Assembly: GCA_964645705.1 (NCBI GenBank)
Contig: CAZYAB010000003.1
Span: 70,068-134,067 of the forward strand
DNA length: 64,000 nt
Reading direction: 5' to 3'
From: an uncultured Methanosarcinales archaeon
Lineage (GTDB): Archaea > Nanobdellota > Nanobdellia > Woesearchaeales > CAXGTL01
The position numbers and the translations under genes are program-made. Positions 1 through 60,033 of this stretch are shown here, one piece after another (position 1 is the first letter of the stretch; every line of letters starts with the position of its first letter). The notes below the pieces were generated by a model. It ran no database searches. It had not been told where the DNA came from and saw only the letters and a program-made list of their open reading frames with translations.

Positions 1-99
1 TTTTGAATCTATTATCTGGCTCAAGTACCATAGATCATCCATGTTTTCTATTTTTATTTTTAATATTCCTTTTTTCAGGTTTTTGTGGATTATTTTCAT
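1..99 (-). CDS. Pelota/Dom34-like mRNA surveillance factor, first 33 codons only (gene runs off the left edge)
   Basis: A minus-strand ATG at 97-99 opens a frame reaching base 1: MKIIHKNLKKGILKIKIENMDDLWYLSQIIDSK. The DDLWxLxxII N-terminal pattern matches my recollection of archaeal Pelota. It is too short for the 60-aa ORF track. Confidence 0.5.
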   Translation of the reverse strand, partial: MKIIHKNLKKGILKIKIENMDDLWYLSQIIDSK

Positions 100-108
100 T
101 TTATTTAG

Positions 109-153
109 CCCACCAAGCCTTTCCCCCGGCCACCCGCCCTTGTTATGGTGGGG
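109..153 (+). repeat. C-rich intergenic repeat, copy E1
   Basis: CCCACCAAGCCTTTCCCCCGGCCACCCGCCCTTGTTATGGTGGGG. Four C3+ tracts with loops of 11, 5 and 1 nt. CCCACCA (109-115) and TGGTGGG (146-152) can close a 7-bp stem. It lies 10 nt upstream of the Pelota ATG. Confidence 0.7.
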
Positions 154-291
154 ATCATATAATTAAGGGACAGACTATCTCTATATATAAAAAAGGATAA
201 CATTTATATATAAATCTATTTATAATGAATTATGTAGACAAGGGTCTAGCATATATATAGTTATTTAAAAAAAGAAACAGGTGGTATTAAA

Positions 292-1998
292 ATGTTAAGA
301 AAAAAATTTTCAAAAAAATCTCAAGAAGCAGGTGGAGGAAGTGCAGCTGTGTTTGTTGCTGTTATTGCTTTTATGATTATTCTATATATTTTGTTCTTGC
401 CTCCAGATGAAAGAGCACAAATATTGGGTGGAGACGGCAGTAGTTCTAGTGATGATTATGTTCCTGATTATGATGATATAGATGAAGATGATGATGATGC
501 AGATGAAGATGAGGATATATTGTTATTGGAAAATCCAGGTATGCTAAGCGTGCATGGTGATGATAGGATTTATCATTTTATTCAAAAAGTAAGGCTTTTT
601 GATGAATGGTCTGGGACTGTTTTAGAAGAACACAGGGCAGTGTCTGTGAAAAGAAGCTTGTTTGATAATGAACCAGAATTATTGATCTTAAGATTAGATG
701 ATTTTGAGAATACAAAAAGTCTTTTGATTGATTTTGTTATTAAAAAATCTGTAGGTGATCTAATGATTAAGTTTAATGAAGAAGCTGTTTTTGATGGTTA
801 TCTTACAGAAGGAACTATTGAGCCAATATCTATTAGAAATGATTTATTAAAAAAGAATAATCTTATTGAGTTCATTGTTTCATCACCTGGGCTAAGATTT
901 TGGAGAACAAATCAATATTATTTGGAAAATATTAAAGCGATTGGAACTATAAGAGATGTTTCACACATGATTACTAAGGAAAAATTCTTTATATCAGATG
1001 ACGAGTATGATTCTGCTGAAAAGATAGAGCTCAAGTATTATCCTTATTGTGATTCTAAGAAAATAGGACCACTAACAATAAAAGTAAATGATCAAGAAAT
1101 TTATTCTGGAACACCTTATTGTAATGCTGAAAGAACTGTTGAGTTTGGACCAGAGATAATTAATAAAGGAGACAATAATATTGAGTTCTCAACAACAAAA
1201 GGTAGTTATGAAATAAATAAAATTACAATAGAAGCAGAAGTAGACAAAAAAGAAGATTATTCATATTACTTTGACTTGGATGAAGACTATTTTATGGAAG
1301 TTGCAGAAGGAAGGTGCGGTGATGTTGATGATATTTGTCCTGCAGGTTGTTCAGAAGACGAAGACATAGATTGCTGCTTTGGAGCAGGTTCTGATAATTA
1401 TTGGTGTGACCTTGAACCAAGCAATGTCGACAATAGATGTGTTACAGATGTTGAAGATAATGAATGCGGATTGTGTTTAACAGGGTATGAAGATGAGTAT
1501 GGTTATCCTCATGATTCTTGTGAAGGATTGTGTGGTGATGATACTGATGATTTGTGTCATTCTGGCTGTAATAAGAATTATGATAAGGATTGTTGTTATG
1601 TAGATGATTCTGATAATTATTGGTGTGATTATGTGCCGGATGCTGGTTTAAGCAGTGTATGTGAAGATTCAATATCTTCTGGCGAGTGTGATGACTGTCT
1701 TACAAATTACAAGAATGAAAATAAAGACATTCCAATTATATGTGACAGGTATCCGTCAGGAAAATATAAACTAAAGAAAGGATATAAAGTTTTGTTAGAC
1801 TTTAAATTCTTAGACGATGATAAGGAAAAGAAATTTGAATTAAACATCAATGGAAGAAAAGATATGATAAGAACTGATGATGACACAGAATCAAAAGATA
1901 TATCTTCAAAAGTAAGAAGAAATTATAATTCATTGCTTATCAAGCCAGAAAAATCATTTGAAATTGCAGAAATAAAAGTAACTTTGGAGAAAAATTGA
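292..1998 (+). CDS. Membrane-anchored acidic, Cys-rich surface protein (function unknown)
   Basis: 568-aa ORF with AGGTGGT 8 nt upstream of the ATG. It has an N-terminal TM helix (AAVFVAVIAFMIILYILFL) and a poly-Asp/Glu stretch. Two tandem ~70-aa Cys-rich modules follow (CGDxxDDxC..GC..D.DCC...SDNYWCD...EC..CLT.Y). Confidence 0.8.
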   Translation: MLRKKFSKKSQEAGGGSAAVFVAVIAFMIILYILFLPPDERAQILGGDGSSSSDDYVPDYDDIDEDDDDADEDEDILLLENPGMLSVHGDDRIYHFIQKVRLFDEWSGTVLEEHRAVSVKRSLFDNEPELLILRLDDFENTKSLLIDFVIKKSVGDLMIKFNEEAVFDGYLTEGTIEPISIRNDLLKKNNLIEFIVSSPGLRFWRTNQYYLENIKAIGTIRDVSHMITKEKFFISDDEYDSAEKIELKYYPYCDSKKIGPLTIKVNDQEIYSGTPYCNAERTVEFGPEIINKGDNNIEFSTTKGSYEINKITIEAEVDKKEDYSYYFDLDEDYFMEVAEGRCGDVDDICPAGCSEDEDIDCCFGAGSDNYWCDLEPSNVDNRCVTDVEDNECGLCLTGYEDEYGYPHDSCEGLCGDDTDDLCHSGCNKNYDKDCCYVDDSDNYWCDYVPDAGLSSVCEDSISSGECDDCLTNYKNENKDIPIICDRYPSGKYKLKKGYKVLLDFKFLDDDKEKKFELNINGRKDMIRTDDDTESKDISSKVRRNYNSLLIKPEKSFEIAEIKVTLEKN

Positions 1999-2019
1999 TT
2001 TTTTTATTTTTTTATTTTG
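1999..2019 (+). terminator. Oligo-T tract directly after the stop codon (archaeal-type terminator candidate)
   Basis: TTTTTTTATTTTTTTATTTTG starts immediately after the TGA at 1996-1998. Confidence 0.35.
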
Positions 2020-2079
2020 CATGTTTTAAAAAAAGAGGAGTGGTTGAATGAAAACATTAAAATTTAACAGGGTGGAAAA

Positions 2080-5000
2080 TTGGTCTGGCCTGCTTTAGCT
2101 CTTAAGTTAATGAAAGACAAGATTAAAGATGTTTATGATAAATTAAAGAGTGAAGAAACTAATAAGAAAACTAAAAAATTATTTGTAGGACCTTCTAGTT
2201 CTGATCCTAGTTTTGAAAAGATGTCTGTATTTAAAGGTCCAAGTGTTATATTTTGGATTATTTTTGCAATGCTTGCTATTGCTGCTTATCTGCAAAGAGA
2301 AAATTTATATATTGGAATAATTGTGATGGTTGTTTTATTTTCAATGTTGATGTATAAACCAAGACTTCTTCATTTTATAGAAGTTCAAGTATTCGGTGTA
2401 GAGGGAGAAGAGCCACCTTTTTTAAAAATTATTAAGTTTATTATCATAGGATTGTTTATTTGGATAGGATTTTGGACAGGAAGCATCTTCTCTCTTGCAA
2501 TCATTATCTTGGTTTTCCTGGTTTTTGAATTATTTGCTCCGCTTATTAGAGATGGATATTTAAAATTAGAAGATATTGCACAAAGAAAAAGAGAAGCAGT
2601 CGGTTTATCAGGAAGTGGATGGGGGAGAAAATTGTTATTTTCTTTTCTTTTTCAAGCAGCTGTTACTGCATTTACTTTTTGGATGCCTGCATTTAATATT
2701 GTTTCTAGGATAGTAATAGGAATTGTAAGCGGATTCTTTTTAGGAGGCTTTGGATTATTAGCAGGAATATCTTCTTTAATATTATTGTACTTAGGTTTTC
2801 CTTACATGTATATTCCCTGTTTCTTAATTTTTGGTTTGATCTCAATATTTACAAAAGGTAGTACTAGATCATTAACACCTTTAGAAAGAAATGTTGCATC
2901 ATCGATCGCTAATGTAGGCGGAAGAGTGTTTTTTGTTATTTTTATCTCATTATTATTAATATTCTTGCCTGTTGCAGGATGGGCTTATTATGAAGAAGGA
3001 ACAATTGCAAATCTTCCTGCGTTTATATTTGTAAAAGGTCAGGAAACAGCAGAATACATTGATGTTGCTGAACTTGAAGCAGCTGATATTTGGAATAAAA
3101 CAATTACAGGGTTTCAATCTTGGATGGCAAAACAACTCAAGATTGCGACAGGTGGTTATTATGTTAGCAAGGTTGATAAATATTCAAAAGGAAAGTTAGG
3201 AGTTTTTATTAAGAAAGCAACGTCATATGAAAAAAAGTTTTATTTAGATGATACTGAAAGAAAAGCCATAATTGGAATAGACATTCAGGGCGGTTCTCTT
3301 GAGATGGATGATTGTGAAAATTATCCTAAAGAAAATCAATTATCTATCAAAAAACAAGAAAGAACTGAAGAATCTGGTCATAGGAATTTATTTGAAGAGC
3401 TCACGCAGAGCACTAACCTAAATAAAAATGAATTAAAAATAATTGAATCTGTTTTTAAATATTGGGTATCTGGAGAACCTGTAAATCTCGATCTTGATTT
3501 AACAGACTGGGATGGTAAGGATGAAGAACAGGAACCATTGTCGGCGCCTAGTGGATCTCCTAGAACTACATATAAAAGTTATACAAGTGGTAATTATGCA
3601 ACTTATGAACAATGTATAGAACAACAAACAATAAGTTTATCATGCGATATAAAACATAAAGAATATGAAGTAATAGGCGATGTTGACCCGCCGATTGTTT
3701 CTATGTTTGATATATCTGGTGGTGGTGAAGGTTTTGAATGTTATCTTGATAAAAACGGACTTAATAGGGATAGGAATAGTGATTCTGTTAATATAAAAGC
3801 AAGTTTTCCTTTTTCAACAAGAGCATACCTTAAGACTTATCTAATGGATGAACAAAAGAAACATGATCTGAAAAGGTCTAATCAGGATATATTGAGATTT
3901 TATGGTATAACTGATAAAAATCCTAGACCTGTTTATACTTCTGGCCCAATCATGATTGGAATAGAAACACCACAATATCTGCCATTGTCAGTTGCAGTTG
4001 ATGATGAAAAAACAACAAGAATGGGGATAACGCTTGAAAACTTATGGGATGGTGTGATTAAAAAAATATATGGTTTATACATAATCGTTCCAAAAGGCAT
4101 TAATGTAAGATGCAACCCGCCTCTGATTGATAATCCTGTTAATCTTGATGATTCTTTTGCTTATTCAATGAATAGTTCTTATCTAAAAAGAGATTTTAAT
4201 GTTGAAGATGTAAAAACATTTTATTGTAGAATTTCTCCTACTTATGAAGTTTTAGATCCAACACCTATAACTACTAAATATATAAAAGTTGTTGCAGAGT
4301 ATGAGTATGAGATAAGTAAAAAAGCTTACATTACTTATAAGAAAGGAGATGGATTAGAAGGAGAGTTATATAATTGTACTGATGTTTGTGATGATGATGA
4401 TGGATGTTTTTGCATGGCAAATTGTAAAAATGTTAAAGCTGATGAAGGAGAAAATTGTGATGCACAAACAAGAGAAGAATTAGAAAAGTTAAGAGAACAA
4501 GATGAGATTGCTTCACAATCATCTGAATGTGGACATGTTACTAATTGTAATCAATATACTTTAGAAGATCTTTGTATGAGAGACGTTTGCCAAATAAGTG
4601 GAAAATGTTTTCCAAAATATGAATTAATATCTATAGGTGAATTATTTGGACATCCTGCTTTTAATTATTGTGAAAATTGTATTGGTAAATCATGCAGTGA
4701 TTATCATGAAAAAATATGTAACCAAGATCCTTGTGATTTTGGTTGTGGATGGGAAGTTGACGAATGTATAAGAACAGAGGGTCAGGATCCTGATCAATAT
4801 ACTGTTGGTGGTTTATCAAGTTATATATTTGATTCTGCAATATGCGACAGAGTAGATGAATGTTTTGATTATGTTGATGAAGGCATGGCTTCTTGTTCAT
4901 ATGATTATTGCGGTTTAAATTGTTATCCTGTTTATGCTGGAAACACATTTACTAATTGTAAAAGTTGTAGTTCTTTCCCTGTTCCTAATTGCAATTTTTA

Positions 5001-5586
5001 TCCAAACAGAGTTAGTTGTGAAAAGAATTTGTGCAGATTAACTGCTTGTGAATGGGAAGATGGCGAGTGTCAAGAAAAATTTACTGGTTTATCATCTGGT
5101 TCAGGTTCTTCTGGGCATTCTTTATTAGATTATAATTTGTTTTGTCCTAAAAAATATTATACGAGTTCATTAAGAATTGAAAATATTAAATCTTATTTAC
5201 CTTTGTTGCCTAAGTATTATGATTATATTAAATCAGCTGCACTGGCTTATAATGTTCCGCCTTCATTAATTGCAGGAGTTATAACACAAGAAAGCAGTTT
5301 TGGAAAGAATATTGGTGATGATGGTATCACAGGATGTAAAGTAGGTAATCAAGGTGACAGAGAGGAGATTATTTGTGCAGCAAGAACATTAAGAAATGGT
5401 TATGAAGGAAAGATCCACGATATTTATGATGATTGTTTAACAAAAACAACTGAACCGCAAAGATGGATCTGTGTGTTAGGGCATTATAATGCGGGTAAGA
5501 TAGGTAACCAAGCATATGCATCAAAAGTGTGGAGATTTAATCTTGAATGGAATAAGTATTTTTGTGAACAATATTTTACTCAATGA
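2080..5586 (+). CDS. Giant polytopic membrane/surface protein with a C-terminal lytic transglycosylase (SLT/goose-lysozyme-like) domain
   Basis: 1168-aa ORF; the track start is TTG at 2080 and the first in-frame ATG is at 2110. The N-terminal ~300 aa contain many hydrophobic helices. The centre shares motifs with the three downstream lipoproteins. A Cys-rich block lies at ~4375-5075, followed by a GLSSGSGSSG linker. The C-terminus reads YNVPPSLIAGVITQESSFG...GHYNAG...YASKV, which matches the SLT catalytic E-S and AYNAG motifs. Confidence 0.85.
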   Translation: MVWPALALKLMKDKIKDVYDKLKSEETNKKTKKLFVGPSSSDPSFEKMSVFKGPSVIFWIIFAMLAIAAYLQRENLYIGIIVMVVLFSMLMYKPRLLHFIEVQVFGVEGEEPPFLKIIKFIIIGLFIWIGFWTGSIFSLAIIILVFLVFELFAPLIRDGYLKLEDIAQRKREAVGLSGSGWGRKLLFSFLFQAAVTAFTFWMPAFNIVSRIVIGIVSGFFLGGFGLLAGISSLILLYLGFPYMYIPCFLIFGLISIFTKGSTRSLTPLERNVASSIANVGGRVFFVIFISLLLIFLPVAGWAYYEEGTIANLPAFIFVKGQETAEYIDVAELEAADIWNKTITGFQSWMAKQLKIATGGYYVSKVDKYSKGKLGVFIKKATSYEKKFYLDDTERKAIIGIDIQGGSLEMDDCENYPKENQLSIKKQERTEESGHRNLFEELTQSTNLNKNELKIIESVFKYWVSGEPVNLDLDLTDWDGKDEEQEPLSAPSGSPRTTYKSYTSGNYATYEQCIEQQTISLSCDIKHKEYEVIGDVDPPIVSMFDISGGGEGFECYLDKNGLNRDRNSDSVNIKASFPFSTRAYLKTYLMDEQKKHDLKRSNQDILRFYGITDKNPRPVYTSGPIMIGIETPQYLPLSVAVDDEKTTRMGITLENLWDGVIKKIYGLYIIVPKGINVRCNPPLIDNPVNLDDSFAYSMNSSYLKRDFNVEDVKTFYCRISPTYEVLDPTPITTKYIKVVAEYEYEISKKAYITYKKGDGLEGELYNCTDVCDDDDGCFCMANCKNVKADEGENCDAQTREELEKLREQDEIASQSSECGHVTNCNQYTLEDLCMRDVCQISGKCFPKYELISIGELFGHPAFNYCENCIGKSCSDYHEKICNQDPCDFGCGWEVDECIRTEGQDPDQYTVGGLSSYIFDSAICDRVDECFDYVDEGMASCSYDYCGLNCYPVYAGNTFTNCKSCSSFPVPNCNFYPNRVSCEKNLCRLTACEWEDGECQEKFTGLSSGSGSSGHSLLDYNLFCPKKYYTSSLRIENIKSYLPLLPKYYDYIKSAALAYNVPPSLIAGVITQESSFGKNIGDDGITGCKVGNQGDREEIICAARTLRNGYEGKIHDIYDDCLTKTTEPQRWICVLGHYNAGKIGNQAYASKVWRFNLEWNKYFCEQYFTQ

Positions 5587-5609
5587 ACAATTAATAAAAA
5601 TTAATAAAA

Positions 5610-6596
5610 ATGAAAACAAAAATAAAAAAAAATAGAACTGTATTTATTAATTTGTTTTTATTATTAAGTCTAGTTATTATTATATTCTCTTTAACAGGGT
5701 GCCAAGATTCTTCTTCAACTCAATTAACAGAAGAGCGTCTAAGAACAGGAACAAAAGGTCTTGTAATTAAATTTATTAAAGATAGTCCTCCAAAAATTGT
5801 TTTTGAAAATGATCCTGCTGTTTTTATTAGCCTTTCTGTTGAAAATTTAGGCGTAACAGATGTTAAAAAAGGAGTAATTGCTTTTGGAAGAGAAGAAGAT
5901 TATTTAGCATTTGATGAAATAAGATTGAATGGGGATAAAGTTAATGAGCCTGTTGTTTTTGATATAGAAGGGAAATCTCTTAACAATCCTTTTGGTGGAA
6001 AAGTGTTTTTAGAAATAGAAGCACATTCTAAAGATATTACTTTGAGCAAATATCAAGATACTTCGATACAAGTTAATACTTGTTATGATTATCAAACAAT
6101 ATTGCAAGAAGAAGTTTGCATTGATCCTATTCAAAACATGAACCAGTTAGGTTCAAGAGCATGTGTTGCAAAAAATTTAAACCCAGGTACCAGAGGAGGA
6201 CCTGTGAATGTTAAGGCAGTAGAAGTCATGTCAACAAAAATAGGGAGTAATATTGTAAGAAATGTGTTTAGAATAAAAGTTAATAATGATGGCAAGGGAA
6301 AAGTCATTACAAAAGGTATAGCAGAGCTAATGTGTTCTCATGAAAGTATTAGAGGGATTGAAGGAGTAGATTATAGAAAAGCATGGGACTTTGTTCAAAT
6401 AACTGCAAGATTAGGTAAAGAAGAAATGAGTTGTAAAAATAATGGTGTAATTAAATTAGAAAAAGGAAAAACAGGTGAAACTATTTGTGAAATCGAAACT
6501 CTTTTAAGAGAAGCTTATGTGACTCCGTTATATTTACAATTAGATTATGGCTATACTTATTCAATATATAAAAATTTTCAGATAGAGAATATATAG
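5610..6596 (+). CDS. Secreted lipobox protein, paralog 1 of 3 (unknown family)
   Basis: Signal peptide plus LTGC lipobox. Shared motifs are GTKGLVIKF..SPP, CYDYQT....VCIDP, GGPVNVKAVEV and a terminal LDYGYTYSIY. Confidence 0.85.
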   Translation: MKTKIKKNRTVFINLFLLLSLVIIIFSLTGCQDSSSTQLTEERLRTGTKGLVIKFIKDSPPKIVFENDPAVFISLSVENLGVTDVKKGVIAFGREEDYLAFDEIRLNGDKVNEPVVFDIEGKSLNNPFGGKVFLEIEAHSKDITLSKYQDTSIQVNTCYDYQTILQEEVCIDPIQNMNQLGSRACVAKNLNPGTRGGPVNVKAVEVMSTKIGSNIVRNVFRIKVNNDGKGKVITKGIAELMCSHESIRGIEGVDYRKAWDFVQITARLGKEEMSCKNNGVIKLEKGKTGETICEIETLLREAYVTPLYLQLDYGYTYSIYKNFQIENI

Positions 6597-6601
6597 GTAT
6601 T

Positions 6602-6729
6602 GTTTAGCGATACATTTATACAACAAAAGTTCAAAAAAACTTTTGAGCATAAAGGTTTTTCCAAAACCTTTATACAACAAAAATCCAAGATTTTTGAGCA
6701 TAAATGTATCGTTTAGCGATACATTTATA
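6602..6729. repeat. Nested direct/inverted repeat element (MITE-like or operator array) between lipoprotein paralogs 1 and 2
   Basis: The 19-bp direct repeat GTTTAGCGATACATTTATA occurs at 6602-6620 and 6711-6729. CGATACATTTAT (6608-6619 and 6717-6728) is the reverse complement of ATAAATGTATCG (6700-6711). Two internal units read TTTATACAACAAAA-N-TTTTGAGCATAAA (6615-6653 and 6669-6704). A central palindrome AAAGGTTTTtccAAAACCTTT lies at 6651-6671. Confidence 0.7.
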
Positions 6730-6758
6730 TATATAAAAGGAATAAAATACTATATAAA

Positions 6759-7949
6759 ATGGAAAAAAGAGCAATGATAAGATATGTTTCAGTATTCTTA
6801 ATAGTTTTTTTACTAGTTTTCTTGTCTGGATGTAAGCCAAGAGAAGGAGACATTCCTAAAAATATTCATAAAGGAACAAAAGGTTTAGAAATGAAGTTCT
6901 TGCCAAATAATCCTCCTAATGAAATAACAACCTCAACTGGAAGTGATTTTTATGTTTCAGTCGAATTACATAATGAGGGTACGTCTCCTGCAAAAGGTTA
7001 CTTGTTTTTGTCTGGCTATGATACTAATATTATAGATATGCCTGACAGTTATTGGTTCCCTGATCCTTATAATTGTGGTGGTGAATATATTATGGGCAAA
7101 TCGCAATATAATCCTACAGGAGAAATTTGTGTTGAAGAAATGAAAGGAAGATTAAACTTAAATCCTGTTGTTAATTATATTCCTCTTAAAATACCTCTGA
7201 TGGTAAAAGCTATTTATGAATATTCAACAGACACTAGTATTTCTGTTTGTGTTGATCCTAATTATCATCAGATAAGTAAAAAAGCATGTGAGATGAGACC
7301 TGTTACTGTTTCTGGTGGTCAGGGTGCACCTGTGGCTGTTACTAAAATTGTTCCAATACCAGTTGGAAATGGACTTGTTCAATTTAATATTCATGTAAAA
7401 AATGTTGGCGGCGGTAAAGTTGTTAATGTAGGTATACCACCTCATGAATTAAGACCAAGAGATTATAATAATATTCTTTATGTAATATCTGTTCCGTCGG
7501 ATATTTTTCCAACAGCATATGCAATAGAAGGAGTATCGCTTGGTTATGATGATTATAGATTTGGTTATGGTGATTATGGATATCAATTTTCAGTAGGTGG
7601 TAATTTTAATGATGCTGCTCAAGGAATGTTAAGACTTCATAATGATCAAACTGTTATTACTGAAACAGTTAATTTTGGTGATAAGGCTTTTGAATATATG
7701 ACTCCATTAAGAGTTACTTTGTTTTATGGGTATATGCAAGACATAACAAAGAATATTGTTATTAATAAAGTTCCTAATGCAGAAATGGATGATATGTATC
7801 CTAGCCATGGTTTTGGAGATTTTGGACTTTATCGTATGGGGTCAGATGGAAGAAAGTATGTTGGACATCATGAAGATAGATATGGGCATGATGTATGGCG
7901 TTATACTGATAGAGAAAAAGGAATAGACATATCATTTAAAACTACTTAA
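6759..7949 (+). CDS. Secreted lipobox protein, paralog 2 of 3 (unknown family)
   Basis: Signal peptide plus LSGC lipobox. Shared motifs are GTKGLEMKF..NPP, YEYSTDTSISVCVDP, GGQGAPVAVTKIVP and FYGYMQDITKNIVI. It has an extra Gly/Tyr/Asp-rich C-terminal tail. Confidence 0.85.
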   Translation: MEKRAMIRYVSVFLIVFLLVFLSGCKPREGDIPKNIHKGTKGLEMKFLPNNPPNEITTSTGSDFYVSVELHNEGTSPAKGYLFLSGYDTNIIDMPDSYWFPDPYNCGGEYIMGKSQYNPTGEICVEEMKGRLNLNPVVNYIPLKIPLMVKAIYEYSTDTSISVCVDPNYHQISKKACEMRPVTVSGGQGAPVAVTKIVPIPVGNGLVQFNIHVKNVGGGKVVNVGIPPHELRPRDYNNILYVISVPSDIFPTAYAIEGVSLGYDDYRFGYGDYGYQFSVGGNFNDAAQGMLRLHNDQTVITETVNFGDKAFEYMTPLRVTLFYGYMQDITKNIVINKVPNAEMDDMYPSHGFGDFGLYRMGSDGRKYVGHHEDRYGHDVWRYTDREKGIDISFKTT

Positions 7950-7970
7950 AATAAAAAAAGGTGATTAAGC

Positions 7971-8960
7971 ATGAAAATAAAAACAATATTTGCTATTAGC
8001 ATGATTTTGTTGCTAATTTTGGTTATATCTGGTTGTGATGAAGAAGTAAGCAATACATCTCCTGGTGATGCATTCTTAGGTGGACAAGCAGGATTAAAAG
8101 TTGAGTTTCAAAAAGGAATGCCGCCTCCTGAAGTGCTTGATGATAATAAACAAAGATTTGGAATAGCTGTCAAACTTCATAATATTGGTGAATCAGATGT
8201 TATTGCAAATGGTGGTTATGTGGAAATAGTAGGTATCAATGCAAAACAGTTTGGTAAAAATAATCAAGATGATTTGAAAAAAGAAATAGATGATGAATTA
8301 AAAGGAGCGAAAAAGAGTTTAAGAGGAGGAGAAAGGATTGATGGAGGACAAACTATTGTTGAGTTCTCTGATTTAAAATATAAACCAGATCTTCCAGGTG
8401 ATAATAAATTTAACATTGTTGCTGATGTTTGCTATAACTATAAAACAACTAGCGTTGTAAATGTTTGTGTTAAAAAAGACTTGTTAAAAGATTTGTCAGA
8501 TGAAAAGATTTGTCAAGTAACAGGTGACAAAGATGTTCAAAATTCAGGAGGACCAATACATATAACAAAAGTGTCACAAAATCCGATAGGCGATAGTAAG
8601 ATACAGTTATTGTTTACTATTGCTCATGTAGGTGATCCTGAAGATAGTTTTTTCAAAAGAGGAACTGATTGTGATGATAGTACTGTAAATGATGATAGGT
8701 ATAGAGTGTATTTTAAGATATTAAGTGATATAGACGGTGCAAAACCTCAATGTAATAGGCTAGAAACAGCTTCTGGTGATAATGTGGATAGGTCAGAAGG
8801 TTATATTACTTTATATGATAGAGAAGAACAACCTATGTCATGTACAATTGATCTTAGCGGTGTTTCAAGCAAAGCTTTTGAAACTGTTCTTAAACTTGAG
8901 ATGGAATACAGATATTTACAAAGCTTGGGTAAAGAATTGATTGTCAAGGATGTGAGTTAG
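7971..8960 (+). CDS. Secreted lipobox protein, paralog 3 of 3 (unknown family)
   Basis: AGGTGAT lies 6 nt upstream of the ATG. Signal peptide plus ISGC lipobox. Shared motifs are GQAGLKVEF..MPPP, CYNYKTTSVVNVCV, SGGPIHITKV and MEYRYLQSLGKELIV. Confidence 0.85.
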   Translation: MKIKTIFAISMILLLILVISGCDEEVSNTSPGDAFLGGQAGLKVEFQKGMPPPEVLDDNKQRFGIAVKLHNIGESDVIANGGYVEIVGINAKQFGKNNQDDLKKEIDDELKGAKKSLRGGERIDGGQTIVEFSDLKYKPDLPGDNKFNIVADVCYNYKTTSVVNVCVKKDLLKDLSDEKICQVTGDKDVQNSGGPIHITKVSQNPIGDSKIQLLFTIAHVGDPEDSFFKRGTDCDDSTVNDDRYRVYFKILSDIDGAKPQCNRLETASGDNVDRSEGYITLYDREEQPMSCTIDLSGVSSKAFETVLKLEMEYRYLQSLGKELIVKDVS

Positions 8961-9036: not shown

Positions 9037-9291
9037 TTATTTATATTTAATTTTAAGGACTAGAATTGATAGAGATAATGAGAATATTATTGCATTTGCT
9101 ATTGCAAGAGGCCATGAATGAATAAGAATTCCATAAATAAGCCATAAAACTTGGCTTGTTGTAAATATGAGATACATATGCAAACTTACATCTTTTGTTG
9201 ATTTAGTTTTCCATGATTTTATGACTTGTGGCATAAATGAAATTACAGACAATATTGTTGCTATATAACCAATGAGTTCTATGTATATCAT
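9037..9291 (-). CDS. SemiSWEET / PQ-loop (MtN3-like) 3-TM sugar transporter
   Basis: 84 aa with three hydrophobic helices and the PQ motif (SFMPQVIKSWKTKST). Confidence 0.8.
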   Translation of the reverse strand: MIYIELIGYIATILSVISFMPQVIKSWKTKSTKDVSLHMYLIFTTSQVLWLIYGILIHSWPLAIANAIIFSLSLSILVLKIKYK

Positions 9292-9317: not shown

Positions 9318-10298
9318 TTAAACTTTGCTCTCTTTTTCACCTAACAAAGTAAGATAAGCTAATAATGCTTCTAATTGTAAGAATTCATCAGAACCCTCGA
9401 CCAATCTAAATTCTATGTCACCTGTTTTGTCTAAGATCATTACTTTGCCTCTGTCTGATATGTGTTCTTTATCTAGTTTCCACACTTCTCTTGATATTTG
9501 TTTTATTACATCAAGACCAGACAGACCATAGTTAAGCATTGTGTCAAGTAACATGTTTCTTGATTCTATAAATTTGTTTTTTAGTGCTAGTTCTAATATT
9601 TGTTTTATTTCTTGTGGTTGTGCCATTGATGCCATTGAAAAGATTATGTCAGTTGTTATGTTTTTTGATATTGCTGCACAGCTTTGCATAATATTTTCTA
9701 GTTTTCTACAATCACCATTGCTTGCTTTGAATAAAGCTAGTTTTGTTTCATCTGATAATTCTAGTGATTCATTATTTGCAATCTGATCTATTAATTCAAA
9801 TATGTTTTCTTTAGGCAATGGTTTGAATTTAAATATTGCACACCTTGATTGTATTGGATCCAAGATCTTTGACATATAATTACAGCTTAGTATGAATCTG
9901 CATGTTGATGTATAATTTTCCATTGTTCTTCTCAAAGCTTGCTGTGCTTCTTTTGTCAATGCATCTGCTTCATCTAAAAGAATTATTTTAAATGGAACAT
10001 CACCTAATGCTTTTGTCCTTGCAAAGTCTTTTACTTTGACTCTTATTATATCTATGCCTCTTTCGTCTGATGCATTTAATTCTAAGAAATTCTGTCTCCA
10101 AGATTCACCAAATAATTGTCTTGCCATTACTAATGCAATCGTTGATTTTCCTATTCCTGCCGGGCCTGCGAACAATAAGTGAGGCATGTTATTTTGCTCA
10201 ACAAATGCTTTAACTTTGTTGATTACGTGTTGCTGACCTTTTACTTGTTCAAATGTCTTTGGCCTGTATTTTTCTGTCCAGATTGCTGATTCTGTCAT
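9318..10298 (-). CDS. rfcS: Replication factor C small subunit
   Basis: Walker [19 protein letters not shown], the SRC motif ([10 protein letters not shown]), and an N-terminal [10 protein letters not shown] box. Confidence 0.95.
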
Positions 10299-12476: not shown

Positions 12477-14918
12477 ATGAAGAGATTGGGGGTTTTTGTG
12501 GTGGTTTTTGTGGTTTTTTTTAGTGTGTTTTGCATTGGTGATGATTTTTCTGTTGTTGTGAAATTAAGTGATGAAATTTATACAAATGTTGAATATGATA
12601 AGTTATACACTGTAAAGAATCATGATTGGAGAAGTAATAGAATTATGTCTGATATAGTTGTCAATTATTATTTATTAGATGAATTTGATGAAATTTTACT
12701 AGATGAAGAGCTTGAAATAACTAGTTTAAAAAGTTCAAAAACGTCAAAAACAGGTCTTATCCATCTACAAGAACCTGGTGATTATTATTTTTGTGCTGAA
12801 ATAATTGAAACTTCTTTAGAAGATAATAATCAAGATAATGATCTAGATTGTAAGGAAATAAGTGTTATTGGTTTTGATGATGGTGATGTATTTAATGATT
12901 TTCAAGTAACTGTTGTTTTGAATGATGTTATATTTTCTGAATTAGAATATTATGATCTGTTTAAAATAGAGAATTTAGGTTGGGGTGATTTCAAAATTGA
13001 AACTAATCTCACTATTAATTATTATATATTTGATGAGAATAATGATCTTGTATTCGAAGATGAAACTTTTGTAGAAGGTTTGAAGAGTTCAAAAAAGTCT
13101 AAAACAGGAATTATTTACATAGAGGATGAAGGGAATTATACTTTTTGTGCTGAAATTATTCAAACTTCTTTTGATGATGATAATGAAGAAAATAATCTTA
13201 ATTGTAAAAATATATTAGCAATTGATTCTTCTAATGTTCCTTGTAATATGAGTATTGGCATTGATTCAAAAGATTATTTTTATTCAAATGAGACTAGTTT
13301 CAGATTTGATTTTGTTGTATCTAATGAAGAGTTTTATCCTGATGTTGAGTTTTGGGTTGAAGATATGTTTGGTTATATTGTACAAGATATTGATGAATAT
13401 GAAGTAGATGATAATTATTATGGAAGAATGTATAAATCAAATATTGGTGAAGTGTATGATTATCAAAATATTGTTGTTAAAGCGAATATTACAAAACCTT
13501 GGTGTTATGATTCTGATTATAGTGATAATTTGGCTGAAAAGATGATAGTTGTAAAAAATCCAACATATTATACTTTCCAAGAATATGAAATAAATCCTTA
13601 TATTATAGTTGAAGCAAAAAATAAAGGAACTATTAATTTTGGTGATAGGTTTTATGTTGAAATAGAGGAAGCATGGTCAGGAGATATGTCTGGCAGGATC
13701 AAGATATGGGTTGAGGATAATAAAACTAAGAAAAAAATAAGTGAATCAATTGTTAGCATTGGAATGCCTAAGATGTCTTATATTGAAGATCTTAAGATAC
13801 CTATTGAATTAAAAGATAATTGTGATAGGAAATTTGACGATGGAAATTATTCAATAGTTTATGAAGGGTTTGGGTTTAAGGATAATATTTTTGTAGATGT
13901 TGGAGGAATTGATAATAGAATCTGTAGAAGTGATAATTCTAAAAAGGATTCTTCAATAAGCATTGATAAAGTTAAATATAAATCAGGAGATTATGCAAAA
14001 TTAGGAGAATCAATAAGAGCAGAAGTTAATGTGTATAAAGGTGATACCGGGAAGAGTAGTCTTCGTGCTTATGTTGTTGATGATAGAAATAAAAGAATAA
14101 GTTCTTATGATTCTAAATTCTTGTTAAAAACAAAGTATCAAAAATATGATTTAACAATTCCTATTCAATTAAAACCATTATGCGATGAAAAAACAGATGA
14201 AAGAGATTATACTTTAATTGTTAGAGGTCTTGATCTTGAGACAAAAGAACTAATTGAAATTGATGGCAATTTGCCTACTCTTTGTAAATATCATGACAAG
14301 GATGATGAATCTAATAAAAAGGTGAAAAAAAGAAAAGGCAGTTTTGATGCAGAGTTTGCTTCTTATCCATCTAAGGTAAGAGTTGGTGAATTGTTTTATG
14401 TTGAGGTTAAATTAGAAAATAATAAAGATGAGGATATTGGTGTTGATATTTGGTCAAATATTGTAAAAGGTAGGAAAAAATTTGGTGAAAATAATAAAAA
14501 GAATGTCCAAGTTAAAGAAGGGGAAAGTGTTAATGTTAAATTACTTGGTTCTGTTGATGAAATTGATCCTGGTGAGTATGAACTAAAGGTTGGCATGGAT
14601 AGAAGCGATATAAAAACAAATAAATATTTGAGGGAAAGTATTTTGGTTGAGAGTAGTGAGAAGAATGATACTTGTGTTATTTATCAGGGATTTGCGGCTG
14701 TTTCTGATGTTAATGAAACTTTTGAAACTAAAGTTTTTGAATCAGCTACAACTGATAAATATTCTTATAAATATGATAAAGATATTGAGCAAGTTAAGCC
14801 TGTAACTGGTACTGTTATTTATGAATCATCGACTGTTCGTGCTTCTAAGTTAGTACCTTATATTATTATATTTATGTTGTTAGTGCTTTGTGTTGTGTTG
14901 GTTGTTTGGAAGGTTTAG
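12477..14918 (+). CDS. Large repeat-containing surface protein with signal peptide and C-terminal TM anchor
   Basis: 813 aa with an N-terminal hydrophobic signal. Two ~110-aa repeats share NYY(L/I)(L/F)DE..., LKSSK(T/K)SKTG(L/I)I..., and (Y/T)FCAEII(E/Q)TS. Further beta-sandwich-like repeats follow. The C-terminal helix is LVPYIIIFMLLVLCVVLVVW. Confidence 0.8.
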   Translation: MKRLGVFVVVFVVFFSVFCIGDDFSVVVKLSDEIYTNVEYDKLYTVKNHDWRSNRIMSDIVVNYYLLDEFDEILLDEELEITSLKSSKTSKTGLIHLQEPGDYYFCAEIIETSLEDNNQDNDLDCKEISVIGFDDGDVFNDFQVTVVLNDVIFSELEYYDLFKIENLGWGDFKIETNLTINYYIFDENNDLVFEDETFVEGLKSSKKSKTGIIYIEDEGNYTFCAEIIQTSFDDDNEENNLNCKNILAIDSSNVPCNMSIGIDSKDYFYSNETSFRFDFVVSNEEFYPDVEFWVEDMFGYIVQDIDEYEVDDNYYGRMYKSNIGEVYDYQNIVVKANITKPWCYDSDYSDNLAEKMIVVKNPTYYTFQEYEINPYIIVEAKNKGTINFGDRFYVEIEEAWSGDMSGRIKIWVEDNKTKKKISESIVSIGMPKMSYIEDLKIPIELKDNCDRKFDDGNYSIVYEGFGFKDNIFVDVGGIDNRICRSDNSKKDSSISIDKVKYKSGDYAKLGESIRAEVNVYKGDTGKSSLRAYVVDDRNKRISSYDSKFLLKTKYQKYDLTIPIQLKPLCDEKTDERDYTLIVRGLDLETKELIEIDGNLPTLCKYHDKDDESNKKVKKRKGSFDAEFASYPSKVRVGELFYVEVKLENNKDEDIGVDIWSNIVKGRKKFGENNKKNVQVKEGESVNVKLLGSVDEIDPGEYELKVGMDRSDIKTNKYLRESILVESSEKNDTCVIYQGFAAVSDVNETFETKVFESATTDKYSYKYDKDIEQVKPVTGTVIYESSTVRASKLVPYIIIFMLLVLCVVLVVWKV

Positions 14919-59139: not shown

Positions 59140-59517
59140 ATGATAAATAATTCAGACCAAATCCTTGAACACCTAGAGAAAATCAAGAAAAATAAAATCT
59201 TAGTAATAGTCGAAGGAAAAAACGATAAAAAAGCTCTTGCACATTTTGGCATAACAAATGTAATGGTATTATATGGAAAAGCTTTGTATCAAGTAATAGA
59301 AGAAGTGGTTGCAAGAACTAAGGAATGCATTATCTTAACAGACTTAGATAAAAAGGGAAAACAATTATATGGTATGTTGAATTCTAAACTTAGTCAGATG
59401 GGTGTTAAAGTTGATAATAGGTTTAGACATTTCTTGTTCAAAGAAACTAAGCTAAGACAGATAGAGGGTCTTGTAACTTATGTTAATAAATTAAGTGAAA
59501 AAGGCTTACAAAAATAA
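59140..59517 (+). CDS. Small stand-alone Toprim-domain protein
   Basis: ILVIVEGKNDKKAL (Toprim Glu) and CIILTDLDKKGKQL (DxD). Confidence 0.75.
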   Translation: MINNSDQILEHLEKIKKNKILVIVEGKNDKKALAHFGITNVMVLYGKALYQVIEEVVARTKECIILTDLDKKGKQLYGMLNSKLSQMGVKVDNRFRHFLFKETKLRQIEGLVTYVNKLSEKGLQK

Positions 59518-60033
59518 ATTAATCAGAATCATCAAACCACCAGAAATACAACAACCAATCAAAATATAAGTTCCTACTTTTAGTGCGTCTAATTGTTTTC
59601 TTATGACTTGTTCTAATTCAAATATTTCTTGTGCATATTCTTCAACAATGCCTTTGTCATTCTTAACTAATTTTAATAATTCTTTTTCATAATTTTTCTC
59701 ATTTAATCTCCCTGTTTCGTGTGTATGGAAGAATATGTTTAATCGTTTTCTGCTCTTTTTTGTTGTTAGTTCTGCTGCGCTTAAGCTAAATAATATTGCA
59801 AGCATTGTTCCTGCCATTATAATAATAACACCAGACCTGAATAATAATATTTCTTCTAAAAATGATTTTTTGAATATTTCATTTATTACAAAGCTTAAAA
59901 TTACACCAGATATAACAATTAGATAATGTGTTTTTGTAATTCCCTGTTTGTATAGCTCAATGTGAAGCTTTAGAATATCACTTAGTAGCATGCTTTTGCT
60001 AAAATTTAAGTCAGGGAACCTCTTTTTTGTCAT
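59506..60033 (-). CDS. Hypothetical membrane protein (3 predicted TM helices)
   Basis: 175-aa ORF with hydrophobic segments HYLIVISGVILSFVI, GVIIIMAGTMLAILF and TYILIGCCISGGLMILINLF. Confidence 0.6.
   Translation of the reverse strand: MTKKRFPDLNFSKSMLLSDILKLHIELYKQGITKTHYLIVISGVILSFVINEIFKKSFLEEILLFRSGVIIIMAGTMLAILFSLSAAELTTKKSRKRLNIFFHTHETGRLNEKNYEKELLKLVKNDKGIVEEYAQEIFELEQVIRKQLDALKVGTYILIGCCISGGLMILINLFL

What the first reader, a model, noticed from the sequence alone, without database searches (positions are those of the whole stretch)
292..8960. Five-gene co-directional secreted/membrane module (possible cell-surface or host-interaction apparatus)
Seen: five consecutive plus-strand genes all encode exported or membrane proteins. 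The first (292-1998) has an N-terminal TM anchor, a poly-acidic stretch and two Cys-rich modules. The second (2080-5586) is a 1168-aa protein with a polytopic N-terminus, a large ectodomain, a Cys-rich block and a C-terminal SLT domain. The other three are tandem paralogous lipobox proteins (5610-6596, 6759-7949, 7971-8960). Spacers between them are short, except for one structured 162-bp spacer. I recognised no ATPase, pilin or S-layer hallmark. Inference: this is a dedicated envelope module. Combining a membrane-embedded giant protein with a glycan-strand-cleaving domain and accessory lipoproteins fits an attachment or penetration device of an episymbiont. I do not recognise it as any described system.
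Basis: inference. Interest (0 to 1): 0.75.

Follow-up and report, generated by a model that had tools for sequence, protein, structure and literature searches.

The report
Conserved five-gene archaeal surface-protein operon
Five neighbouring genes of a tiny Woesearchaeota-type archaeon form a strictly conserved, previously undescribed operon for a membrane-anchored surface complex, whose central protein often carries enzymes that cut bacterial cell walls, so it is a concrete candidate for how these archaea engage bacteria.

Summary
Five co-directional genes (292-8960) all encode envelope proteins, and the three lipobox proteins are true paralogs. The block is a fixed operon. In about 35 species-level Woesearchaeota/Nanoarchaeota MAGs the order is Pelota(-) | P1 | P2 | LIP1 | LIP2 | LIP3 | RFC(-), with tight spacing and position-specific orthology of the three lipoproteins.

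None of the three protein families matches Pfam, NCBIfam, PHROGs, PADLOC or PDB sequences. The P2 core family has 982 clusters at 50% identity.

AlphaFold models show each lipoprotein as two Ig-like beta-sandwiches on a lipid anchor. The conserved P2 ectodomain has the same fold class, with marginal sequence similarity to the lipoproteins.

The Cys-rich blocks and the SLT tail are lineage-specific add-ons, not part of the core. Across the P2 family the C-terminus repeatedly carries different murein hydrolases (SLT, amidases, M23, NlpC/P60, glucosaminidase, 3D). The window's own SLT call is sub-threshold.

Best reading: a lineage-defining surface platform that displays bacterial-wall-degrading modules. 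The complex itself, its core role and any host contact are inferred, not shown. Large SLT proteins in these archaea were already reported; the operon and its conserved core were not, as far as my searches reach.

The parts
1..99 (-). 5' end of the Pelota gene (runs off the window). This is the conserved upstream flank of the operon.
   Evidence: Translation MKIIHKNLKKGILKIKIENMDDLWYLSQIIDS nearly equals the L001 Pelota N-terminus. Pelota(-) precedes P1 in most loci.
100..291 (.). Divergent intergenic region between Pelota and P1. It is AT-rich with TATA-like runs and presumably holds the operon promoter.
   Evidence: Sequence read. The promoter assignment is inference.
292..1998 (+). P1: bitopic membrane protein (N-in signal anchor, beta-rich ectodomain). 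Conserved core is about 400 aa.
   Evidence: ORF. One TM helix. 53-member family alignment with invariant C253 and C277. First gene of the operon in all loci.
292..405 (+). P1 N-terminus: [K/R]-[G/A/S]-Q motif followed by the conserved helix ...LYILFLPP. It is a signal anchor, possibly a processed class III-like signal.
   Evidence: Q11, A18, Y32, P37 invariant in 22 orthologs. Motif present in 31/38. No Pfam or PDB support for pilin type.
1315..1743 (+). P1 insertion: two tandem 10-Cys acidic modules. Lineage-specific.
   Evidence: Absent from L004/L005. Present in 5/38 species loci and in P0011-P0026. Internal duplication scores 164 vs 42 +/- 7.
2080..5586 (+). P2: hub protein. Cytoplasmic tail, polytopic TM bundle, conserved ectodomain, Cys-rich stalk, SLT-like tail. 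The likely true start is ATG 2110.
   Evidence: ORF. Database copy is 1158 aa. Family of 982 clusters.
2236..2994 (+). P2 transmembrane region (aa 53-305, 6-9 helices), weakly conserved.
   Evidence: Hydropathy. AF2 helices with pLDDT 55-70. Few conserved columns. The presenilin hit was rejected as an artefact.
3145..4350 (+). P2 conserved ectodomain core (aa 356-757). It includes a clade-specific helical/disordered insert (aa about 408-505) and the double Ig-like unit (aa about 510-757) with four invariant Cys.
   Evidence: Conservation. AF2 pLDDT above 90 for aa 510-810. Foldseek gives the same hit classes as the lipoprotein. hhalign vs lipoproteins E 0.013 over 184 co-linear columns.
4375..5070 (+). 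P2 Cys-rich block (aa 766-997, 30 Cys). Variable region, presumed disulfide-rich spacer.
   Evidence: Cys positions. Absent in L005/L009-type short P2. The last module, C-x-YPNR-x-SC...C-x-W-x-DG-x-CQ, is shared with P0033 immediately before its SLT domain.
5152..5583 (+). P2 C-terminal divergent lysozyme-like (SLT/GH23-like) domain. Sub-threshold.
   Evidence: Pfam SLT/SLT_2 E about 2e-3, below cut-off. NCBIfam MltB E 2.7e-3. PDB Slt35 alignment over the catalytic Glu motif. No relatives by jackhmmer. AF2 pLDDT below 40.
5610..6596 (+). LIP1: lipobox lipoprotein (Cys31) with two Ig-like beta-sandwich domains.
   Evidence: AF2 pLDDT 83, pTM 0.76. Foldseek. Paralogy. Positional orthology 94%.
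6597..6758 (+). Structured spacer: three palindromes about 54 nt apart inside a 40-nt inverted repeat, followed by TATA-like TTTATATATATA (6724-6735) upstream of LIP2.
   Evidence: z = -9.0. Repeats. Unique in the window. L001 has only 47 bp here; long spacers of 125-220 bp occur in a subset of loci. Function not resolved.
6759..7949 (+). LIP2: lipobox lipoprotein (Cys25), paralog with an internal insert and a C-terminal extension.
   Evidence: Positional orthology 93%.
7971..8960 (+). LIP3: lipobox lipoprotein (Cys22), the most divergent paralog (GG-x-x-G-L motif).
   Evidence: Positional orthology 98%.
9318..10298 (-). RFC small subunit. This is the conserved downstream flank of the operon, not part of the module.
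   Evidence: Pfam families on orthologs. phmmer synteny.

Best explanation
The five genes are one operon encoding a lineage-specific, membrane-anchored cell-surface complex of Woesearchaeota-type DPANN archaea.

Proposed architecture:
- P2 is the hub. A polytopic TM bundle anchors a conserved ectodomain made of two Ig-like beta-sandwiches.
- LIP1, LIP2 and LIP3 are three ancient, non-redundant, lipid-anchored paralogs, each with two Ig-like domains. They have the same fold class as the P2 ectodomain and are probably distantly related to it.
- P1 is a fifth, bitopic subunit.
- I infer that the four double-Ig units plus P1 assemble into a hetero-oligomeric platform on the outer face of the membrane.
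- The C-terminus of P2 projects from this platform and is an evolutionary docking site for 'tool' domains, most often murein hydrolases.

In this window the tool is a 30-Cys, presumably disulfide-rigid, spacer followed by a divergent SLT-like domain. These archaea have no murein (established knowledge), so the substrate must be bacterial peptidoglycan. The platform would hold the enzyme against a bacterial host, prey or cell debris, to attach, breach the wall or harvest wall fragments.

Shown: operon conservation, protein architectures, folds, and hydrolase fusions across the family.
Inferred: physical assembly, surface exposure, lipidation, enzymatic activity of the window's domain, and the biological target.
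For: Operon and synteny:
- The order Pelota(-)|P1|P2|LIPx3|RFC(-) holds in about 35 species-level loci plus the window.
- Median gaps are P1-P2 16.5 bp and P2-LIP1 -4 bp.

Non-redundant subunits:
- 93-98% of best cross-genome hits of each lipoprotein fall on the same operon position.

Envelope location:
- 99 of 101 lipoproteins have an h-region plus [G/A/S]-Cys.
- Lipoproteins and AliA are prevalent in DPANN (PMC12462473).
- The P2 ectodomain has four invariant Cys.

Folds:
- LIP1 AF2 model: pLDDT 83, two beta-sandwiches.
- P2 aa 510-810: pLDDT above 90.
- Both models hit integrin calf/thigh, RspB, BspA, RbmA, VesC and Gram-positive pilins.
- Co-linear hhalign over 184 columns, E 0.013.

Payload:
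- Of 58 representative P2 proteins: 16 SLT (best E 1.9e-31), 2 Amidase_2, 1 Amidase_3, 1 M23, 1 glucosaminidase, 2 3D, 1 lysozyme-like.
- Of 40 species-level P2 proteins: 7 SLT, 1 NlpC/P60, 1 glucosaminidase.
- In all six SLT-positive proteins checked individually, the domain lies C-terminal to the core.

Other:
- Module proteins diverge 2-4 times faster than the adjacent RFC (42-61% vs 88%; 27-40% vs 59-70%), as surface proteins do.
- The literature independently proposes that large SLT proteins of Woese-/Pacearchaeota act on bacterial walls (PMC8204110, PMC9723730).
Against: - No recognised hydrolase was found in 31 of 40 species-level P2 orthologs, so wall degradation cannot be the core function.
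- The window's own SLT-like domain is below every curated threshold, has no detectable relatives and is not modelled (pLDDT below 40).
- Physical association of the five proteins is untested. The mirror-tree signal (partial r 0.44-0.73 among P1/P2/LIP1/LIP2) is not clearly above the RFC-Pelota control of 0.49, and LIP3 is lower.
- P2-lipoprotein homology is statistically marginal.
- The number of TM helices, and therefore the topology, is unresolved.
- No host is known for this lineage.
Confidence: 0.5

Rival explanations
1. The module is a structural envelope scaffold of the lineage: an S-layer-like or sub-S-layer lattice or anchor built from lipid- and TM-anchored Ig-like subunits. Its core job is cell-envelope integrity or shape. 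The hydrolase tails are secondary decorations in some lineages.
For: - The operon is universal, single-locus and vertically inherited, embedded among housekeeping genes.
- Tandem Ig-like domains on a lipid anchor recall lipid-anchored, Ig-domain archaeal S-layer glycoproteins (my knowledge of Haloferax and Nitrosopumilus S-layers; not tested).
- Most P2 orthologs lack any enzyme domain.
Against: - No S-layer family match in Pfam or NCBIfam.
- No archaeal S-layer chains appear among the top 50 Foldseek hits.
- Woesearchaeota MAGs have separately annotated, highly expressed S-layer genes (PMC11606122).
- S-layers are normally built from one or two proteins (PMC5744192 abstract), not five with a polytopic hub.
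Confidence: 0.25
2. The module is a pilus-like or secretion apparatus. P1 would be a type IV pilin-like protein with a class III signal peptide, P2 the membrane platform or a VirB6-like channel with a VirB1-like hydrolase, and the lipoproteins accessory parts.
For: - A [K/R]-[G/A/S]-Q motif with invariant Q sits before a conserved hydrophobic helix in P1.
- Woesearchaeota express archaellins, so a prepilin peptidase should exist (PMC11606122).
- A polytopic protein with a murein hydrolase resembles monoderm conjugation parts (my knowledge).
Against: - No ATPase, PilC/FlaJ, VirB4 or VirD4 gene lies in or next to the operon in any locus.
- No Pfam Class_IIIsignal, pilin or T2SSF/VirB6 match even at E up to 10 or 1.
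- No pilin match in PDB sequences.
- Residues +2 to +8 after the putative cleavage site are small or polar rather than hydrophobic.
Confidence: 0.08
3. The module is a nutrient-uptake system: substrate-binding lipoproteins feeding a permease (P2), for example for muropeptides released by the hydrolase tail.
For: Lipoproteins next to a polytopic membrane protein is the classic importer layout. A SemiSWEET gene lies just downstream in this window.
Against: - The lipoproteins are all-beta Ig-like, not the alpha/beta periplasmic-binding fold.
- No ATPase gene is present.
- The P2 TM region is the least conserved part and matches no transporter.
- The SemiSWEET is absent at this position in the closest relative.
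Confidence: 0.04
4. The five genes are a chance adjacency of unrelated envelope genes, or a mobile, viral or defence island.
For: None beyond the lack of annotation.
Against: - Invariant order and flanks across genomes in which RFC identity falls to about 60%.
- No PHROGs or PADLOC matches.
- No tRNA, integrase or repeats at the borders.
- GC content is the same as the surroundings.
Confidence: 0.02

Closest known systems
[quoted passage not shown] 2021, PMC8204110; also Vigneron et al. 2022, PMC9723730)
   Same: Same organisms. Large exported proteins with an SLT/GH23 domain, proposed to bind or degrade bacterial walls. P2 family members with bona fide SLT very likely overlap this set.
   Different: Those reports describe a domain on large proteins. 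They do not describe a conserved 7-TM plus double-Ig core, the interchangeable hydrolase types, the five-gene operon, the three lipoprotein paralogs or the fixed Pelota-RFC locus. Whether P2 belongs to fam00969 could not be tested.
Monoderm conjugation/T4SS envelope parts: VirB6-like polytopic proteins (ConG/TcpH) plus membrane-anchored murein hydrolases (CwlT, PrgK, TcpG). From my knowledge.
   Same: A polytopic membrane protein with a large extracellular part, combined with SLT, amidase, NlpC/P60 or M23-type wall hydrolases used to breach peptidoglycan locally.
   Different: No VirB4/VirD4 ATPases, no sequence or profile match. Here the hydrolase attacks a foreign wall rather than the cell's own, and the locus is a chromosomal core locus rather than a mobile element.
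FtsEX-type control of extracellular murein hydrolases. From my knowledge.
   Same: A membrane protein with an extracytoplasmic domain that positions or regulates wall hydrolases.
   Different: No FtsE ATPase, no FtsX homology, and the hydrolase is covalently fused.
Lipid-anchored Ig-domain archaeal S-layer glycoproteins (e.g. Haloferax volcanii csg). From my knowledge.
   Same: Archaeal surface proteins built of tandem Ig-like beta-sandwiches and tethered by a lipid.
   Different: There the anchor is C-terminal (PGF-CTERM/archaeosortase) and a single protein forms the lattice. Here there are N-terminal lipoboxes, three paralogs, a polytopic hub, and no sequence or top-50 structural match.
Integrin alpha 'leg' (thigh/calf) domains and Gram-positive adhesin/pilin stalks (AgI/II C-domains, Cna/RspB, GBS pilins)
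   Same: Best Foldseek matches for both LIP1 and the P2 ectodomain: tandem Ig-like sandwiches that act as rigid stalks or adhesion modules.
   Different: TM-scores of only about 0.2 and identity of 7-10%. This is fold-class resemblance, not family membership.

Membership tests
SLT / GH23 lytic transglycosylase (Pfam PF01464), window P2 aa 1025-1168 | Score at or above the curated gathering threshold | tested here: not met
   17.9 bits vs 21.3 (SLT) and 17.6 vs 24.3 (SLT_2). NCBIfam MltB 16.9 vs 281.
SLT / GH23 lytic transglycosylase (Pfam PF01464), window P2 aa 1025-1168 | Catalytic Glu(-Ser) motif and downstream YN-x-G motif | tested here: met
   The query's ...GVITQESSFG... aligns with Slt35 ...GIIGVETRWG... 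at the catalytic-Glu motif. ...GHYNAGK... is present. These are motifs only; activity is untested.
SLT / GH23 lytic transglycosylase (Pfam PF01464), window P2 aa 1025-1168 | Lysozyme-like alpha-helical fold | tested here: inconclusive
   AF2 pLDDT is below 40 over aa 1002-1168, because few alignment rows cover it.
SLT / GH23 lytic transglycosylase (Pfam PF01464), window P2 aa 1025-1168 | Homology to bona fide SLT domains at the same position in orthologs | tested here: not met
   Relatives carry true SLT C-terminal to the core. The window's domain does not align with them: only the preceding Cys module matches P0033, and jackhmmer finds no relatives.
Lipobox lipoproteins (bacterial-type motif, archaeal AliA pathway) | h-region followed by [LVI][ASTVI][GAS]-Cys within about the first 35 residues | tested here: met
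   LTGC31, LSGC25, ISGC22. 87/101 orthologs match strictly and 99/101 have [G/A/S]-Cys. Cys is invariant in A3.
Lipobox lipoproteins (bacterial-type motif, archaeal AliA pathway) | Actual lipidation, and presence of AliA/AliB in this genome | not tested
   AliA is reported in DPANN generally (PMC12462473). I did not search for it in this window or genome.
Archaeal class III signal peptide / type IV pilin-like proteins (P1) | [K/R]-[G/A] cleavage motif directly followed by a hydrophobic stretch | tested here: inconclusive
   [K/R]-[G/A/S]-Q in 31/38 with invariant Q. However, 5-10 small or polar residues precede the hydrophobic helix.
Archaeal class III signal peptide / type IV pilin-like proteins (P1) | Profile match to pilin/archaellin N-termini | tested here: not met
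   No Class_IIIsignal or pilin family at E up to 10 in 22 N-termini. No pilin in PDB.
Archaeal class III signal peptide / type IV pilin-like proteins (P1) | Neighbouring assembly ATPase and platform protein | tested here: not met
   None in any locus, nor among the window's annotated neighbours.
Archaeal S-layer proteins | Match to a known S-layer family or structure | tested here: not met
   No Pfam, NCBIfam or PDB sequence match. No S-layer chain in the top 50 Foldseek hits.
Archaeal S-layer proteins | Forms a two-dimensional lattice and is very abundant | not testable with these tools
   Needs cryo-ET or proteomics.
ABC-type importer (binding lipoprotein + permease + ATPase) | Alpha/beta periplasmic-binding fold in the lipoprotein, and an ATPase gene | tested here: not met
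   The lipoprotein is all-beta. No ATPase gene in the operon.
Type IV secretion (VirB6/VirB1-like) | VirB4-type ATPase nearby and a TrbL/VirB6 profile match | tested here: not met
   No such genes or matches.
GxGD intramembrane proteases (presenilin / prepilin peptidase), P2 TM region | Two catalytic Asp motifs (YD, GxGD) aligned | tested here: not met
   The presenilin hit at E 2.8e-5 has accuracy 0.54, many gaps and no catalytic motif aligned. The conserved Asp column is Tyr in the window.

The most novel reading that the evidence does not exclude
The operon encodes a previously unrecognised archaeal cell-surface machine. It would be a hetero-oligomer of four paralogous double-Ig units (the P2 ectodomain plus LIP1-3) together with P1. 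This machine would be the host-contact organelle of Woesearchaeota and the molecular basis of cross-domain (archaeon-on-bacterium) episymbiosis or predation. The P2 C-terminus would serve as a plug-in site that tunes which bacterial wall chemistry is attacked.
Probability: 0.3. Interest if true: 0.85.

Novelty: new variant of a known kind. Interest (0 to 1): 0.66.

Why it matters
Woesearchaeota and their relatives are among the most widespread uncultured archaea, yet their hosts and the way they attach are unknown. The field has only noted that some encode large SLT-domain proteins.

This analysis places those domains on a defined, universally conserved five-gene operon with a fixed chromosomal address. 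That gives:
- a genetic marker that can be read in any MAG;
- a set of five proteins to model together, express, raise antibodies against and look for by cryo-ET;
- a variable hydrolase 'payload' whose type (glycan-cutting or peptide-cutting) could predict the kind of bacterial wall each lineage targets.

It also defines three large protein families (P1, the P2 core with 982 clusters, and the lipoprotein triplet) that currently have no annotation. If the module turns out to be purely structural, it would still be the first described envelope scaffold of this lineage.

Tried and rejected
1. Presenilin/GxGD protease in the P2 TM region. The PDB profile hit at E 2.8e-5 was rejected after reading the alignment.
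2. P2 ectodomain homologous to the lipoproteins. There was no signal with 4-sequence profiles. With deep profiles there is only a marginal co-linear match, E 0.013. I keep this as 'probable, not shown'.
3. P1 related to the lipoproteins or to P2. No.
4. P1 as a pilin. No profile support.
5. Viral or defence origin. PHROGs and PADLOC are negative, and the viral Foldseek hits are generic.
6. PDB sequence searches with profiles of all three families. Nothing.
7. Rescuing the window's SLT call through relatives. Failed.
8. Spacer as a repeated mobile element. It is unique in the window.
9. Mirror-tree co-evolution. Not discriminating against the RFC-Pelota control.
10. The search for related loci with broad alignments A3 and A7.
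11. Organism names from cluster look-up. None returned.
12. Rfam and tRNA scans of the window. Empty.

Full report

Yes. The five plus-strand ORFs are at the stated coordinates.

- P1 (292-1998, 568 aa) has one N-terminal hydrophobic helix. It also has an acidic run with 18 D/E in aa 47-80, and two tandem 10-Cys modules with identical spacing. The internal alignment scores 164 against 42 +/- 7 for shuffles.
- P2 (2080-5586) has 6-9 hydrophobic helices within aa 53-305, a large ectodomain and 30 Cys between aa 760 and 1000.
- Its 'SLT domain' is only a sub-threshold match. Pfam SLT gives E 2.3e-3 at 17.9 bits against a cut-off of 21.3. NCBIfam MltB gives E 2.7e-3. PDB Slt35 gives E 0.18, with the window's QESS aligned on the catalytic-Glu motif.
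- P2 probably starts at ATG 2110 rather than TTG 2080, because the database copy is 1158 aa.
- The three lipobox proteins are full-length paralogs, E 3e-14 to 7e-11.
- The 162-bp spacer is strongly structured, with z = -9.0.

The window is a 30% GC archaeal housekeeping region with an RFC small subunit, FEN1, SecY and ribosomal proteins. Its first 99 nt encode the N-terminus of Pelota on the minus strand.

**2. It is a fixed operon, not a chance cluster.**

- Relatives of LIP1, P2 and P1 all led to the same layout.
- A scan of species-representative genomes with the P2 alignment returned 39 loci. All are from MAGs titled Woesearchaeota, Nanoarchaeota, Nanoarchaeia or 'archaeon', or from TPA MAGs titled 'uncultured Methanosarcinales'.
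- That last label is probably wrong. One such MAG has an RFC 88% identical to the window's and an identical operon.
- Local HMMs for P1, P2, the lipoproteins, Pelota and RFC gave the same result in nearly every locus with enough flank: Pelota(-) | P1 | P2 | three lipoproteins | RFC(-).
- Median intergenic gaps are 16.5 bp (P1-P2), -4 bp (P2-LIP1), 44 bp and 55 bp.
- Each lipoprotein's best hit in another genome falls on the same operon position in 94%, 93% and 98% of comparisons across 28 genomes. The triplication is therefore ancient and the three copies are distinct subunits.
- Module proteins diverge two to four times faster than the neighbouring RFC, as exposed proteins do.

**3. What the proteins are.**

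None of the five has a significant hit in Pfam, NCBIfam, PHROGs or PADLOC. Profiles of the three families find nothing in PDB sequences.

P1:
- 53 orthologs were aligned.
- The usual form is about 400 aa with two invariant Cys. The double Cys-rich module is an insertion found in 5 of 38 species-level loci and in a further set of metagenomic orthologs.
- The N-terminus carries [K/R]-[G/A/S]-Q with an invariant Q, then a conserved helix ending in LFLPP.
- This looks like an archaeal class III signal. However, no pilin or class III profile matches, and no assembly ATPase or platform gene is nearby. I leave the question open.

Lipoproteins:
- 99 of 101 orthologs have a hydrophobic leader ending in [G/A/S]-Cys.
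- Lipoproteins and the AliA lipidation enzyme are reported as prevalent in DPANN (PMC12462473).
- The AF2 model of LIP1 (pLDDT 83, pTM 0.76) shows an N-terminal helix and two all-beta domains.
- Foldseek finds tandem Ig-like stalks: integrin calf/thigh, AgI/II, Cna/RspB and Gram-positive pilins. TM-scores are only about 0.2. The viral library gives equally generic hits.

P2:
- The conserved core is the TM region plus an ectodomain ending near aa 757.
- The Cys-rich block and SLT tail occur only in the window's clade. L004 has a different tail, and L005/L009-type proteins (about 580-590 aa) have none.
- An exhaustive profile search with the core found 982 representative clusters at E up to 1e-3 and 328 at E up to 1e-30. 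The C-terminal half of the ectodomain is the best conserved part.
- The TM region is poorly conserved. Its weak presenilin hit is a composition artefact.
- The AF2 model of full P2 is confident only for aa about 510-810, where pLDDT exceeds 90.
- That beta-rich unit hits the same PDB classes as LIP1.
- With deep profiles it aligns co-linearly with the lipoprotein family over 184 columns, and the signature motifs pair up. The E-value is only 0.013.
- I conclude that the fold class is shared and distant paralogy is probable.

**4. The functional clue.**

- Scanning 58 representative P2 proteins against Pfam gave 16 SLT (best E 1.9e-31), two Amidase_2, one Amidase_3, one M23, one glucosaminidase, two 3D and one lysozyme-like.
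- Among 40 species-level P2 proteins there are seven SLT, one NlpC/P60 and one glucosaminidase.
- In the six SLT-positive proteins checked individually, the domain lies C-terminal to the core.
- One conserved surface scaffold has therefore repeatedly acquired different enzymes with a single common substrate, bacterial murein. These archaea do not make murein (established knowledge).
- The window's own tail shares with P0033 the Cys module that immediately precedes P0033's true SLT. The domain itself has no detectable relatives. Its assignment as a divergent lysozyme-like domain is probable, not shown.

**5. Mechanism proposed.**

P2 anchors in the membrane and presents a double-Ig ectodomain. 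LIP1-3 are lipid-tethered double-Ig paralogs and P1 is a bitopic subunit. Together they would form a hetero-oligomeric platform. The P2 C-terminus, here a disulfide-rich spacer plus an SLT-like domain, reaches outward to a bacterial wall.

- Shown: the operon, the architectures, the folds and the payload pattern.
- Inferred: assembly, exposure, lipidation, activity and target.

A mirror-tree test gave partial correlations of 0.44-0.73 among P1, P2, LIP1 and LIP2. The RFC-Pelota control gave 0.49, so this test decides nothing.

The main rival is a structural, S-layer-like scaffold. Universality and housekeeping synteny favour it. Against it are the five-part design and the existence of separately annotated, highly expressed S-layer genes in Woesearchaeota. 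The pilus/secretion, importer and mobile-element readings fail specific tests (see the membership table).

**6. Comparison with what is known.**

Castelle et al. 2021 (PMC8204110) and Vigneron et al. 2022 (PMC9723730) reported large extracellular SLT-domain proteins in Woese-/Pacearchaeota and proposed action on bacterial walls. A 2025 survey found peptidoglycan hydrolases to be especially prominent in Nanoarchaeota (PMC12352652).

None of the papers I found describes the conserved core, the interchangeable payloads, the lipoprotein triplet or the fixed Pelota-RFC operon. I therefore rate it a new variant of a known kind (DPANN surface murein hydrolases). It has a 0.3 chance of being a distinct new surface machine.

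**7. The spacer.**

Nucleotides 6597-6758 contain three palindromes about 54 nt apart within a 40-nt inverted repeat. A TATA-like run follows, about 25 nt before the LIP2 start. The sequence is unique in the window and absent from the closest relative, which has 47 bp here. Several other lineages also have a long LIP1-LIP2 spacer of 125-220 bp. It may hold a terminator or operator plus an internal promoter. This was not resolved.

Noticed in passing
window 1-99 (-) and 3-200 (+): The window begins inside the Pelota gene on the minus strand: its first 33 codons are present and nearly identical to the L001 ortholog. The mechanically listed ORF at 3..200(+) overlaps it and is spurious.
   Followed up: yes
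window 9037-9291 (-): An 84-aa SemiSWEET (PQ-loop E 2.5e-14) sits between LIP3 and RFC. It is absent at this junction in the closest relative, where the gap is 80 bp. Other lineages carry different insertions at the same junction (a 304-aa gene in L005, a Fic protein in L009), so the junction looks like an insertion hot spot.
   Followed up: partly
window 6597-6758: The spacer has three palindromes (ATAAA-N-GT...AC-N-TTTAT type) at 54-55 nt spacing nested in a 40-nt inverted repeat, with RNA fold z = -9.0. It is unique in the window and missing from the nearest relative. It could be a regulator binding array, a terminator or a small inserted element.
   Followed up: partly
window 2080 vs 2110: P2 is listed from TTG 2080, but the database copy (P0001, 1158 aa) and family alignments start at the ATG ten codons downstream (2110).
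   Followed up: partly
window 12477-14918 (+): An 813-aa protein has an N-terminal signal-like leader and no Pfam match. It is conserved at the same relative position in L001-L003 (814-826 aa). It is another unannotated exported protein near the module.
   Followed up: no
L011, L015, L019, L022, L027, L028, L030, L031, L038, L040, L042, L046, L048: Thirteen of the 39 species-representative loci are titled 'uncultured Methanosarcinales archaeon' (TPA MAGs). They carry the Woesearchaeota-type operon, and L011 has an RFC 88% identical to the window's. The taxonomic label in those records looks wrong.
   Followed up: partly
L005 17038-20915 (-): A protein of more than 1782 aa combining Peptidase_M23 and GDSL lipase domains lies a few kb from the operon in a relative. 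It is a second giant candidate wall- or membrane-attacking surface protein in this lineage.
   Followed up: no
window 59506-60033 (-): A 175-aa, 3-TM protein has a weak, sub-threshold match to the Pycsar effector TM domain (PycTM, E 1.2e-3, 19.6 bits vs a cut-off of 27.2).
   Followed up: no
P2 family (P0027-P0174) and A8: Three of 40 species-level P2 proteins and one representative carry a Pur_ac_phosph_N/fn3-like domain in place of a hydrolase, so the C-terminal 'payload' is not limited to murein hydrolases.
   Followed up: no
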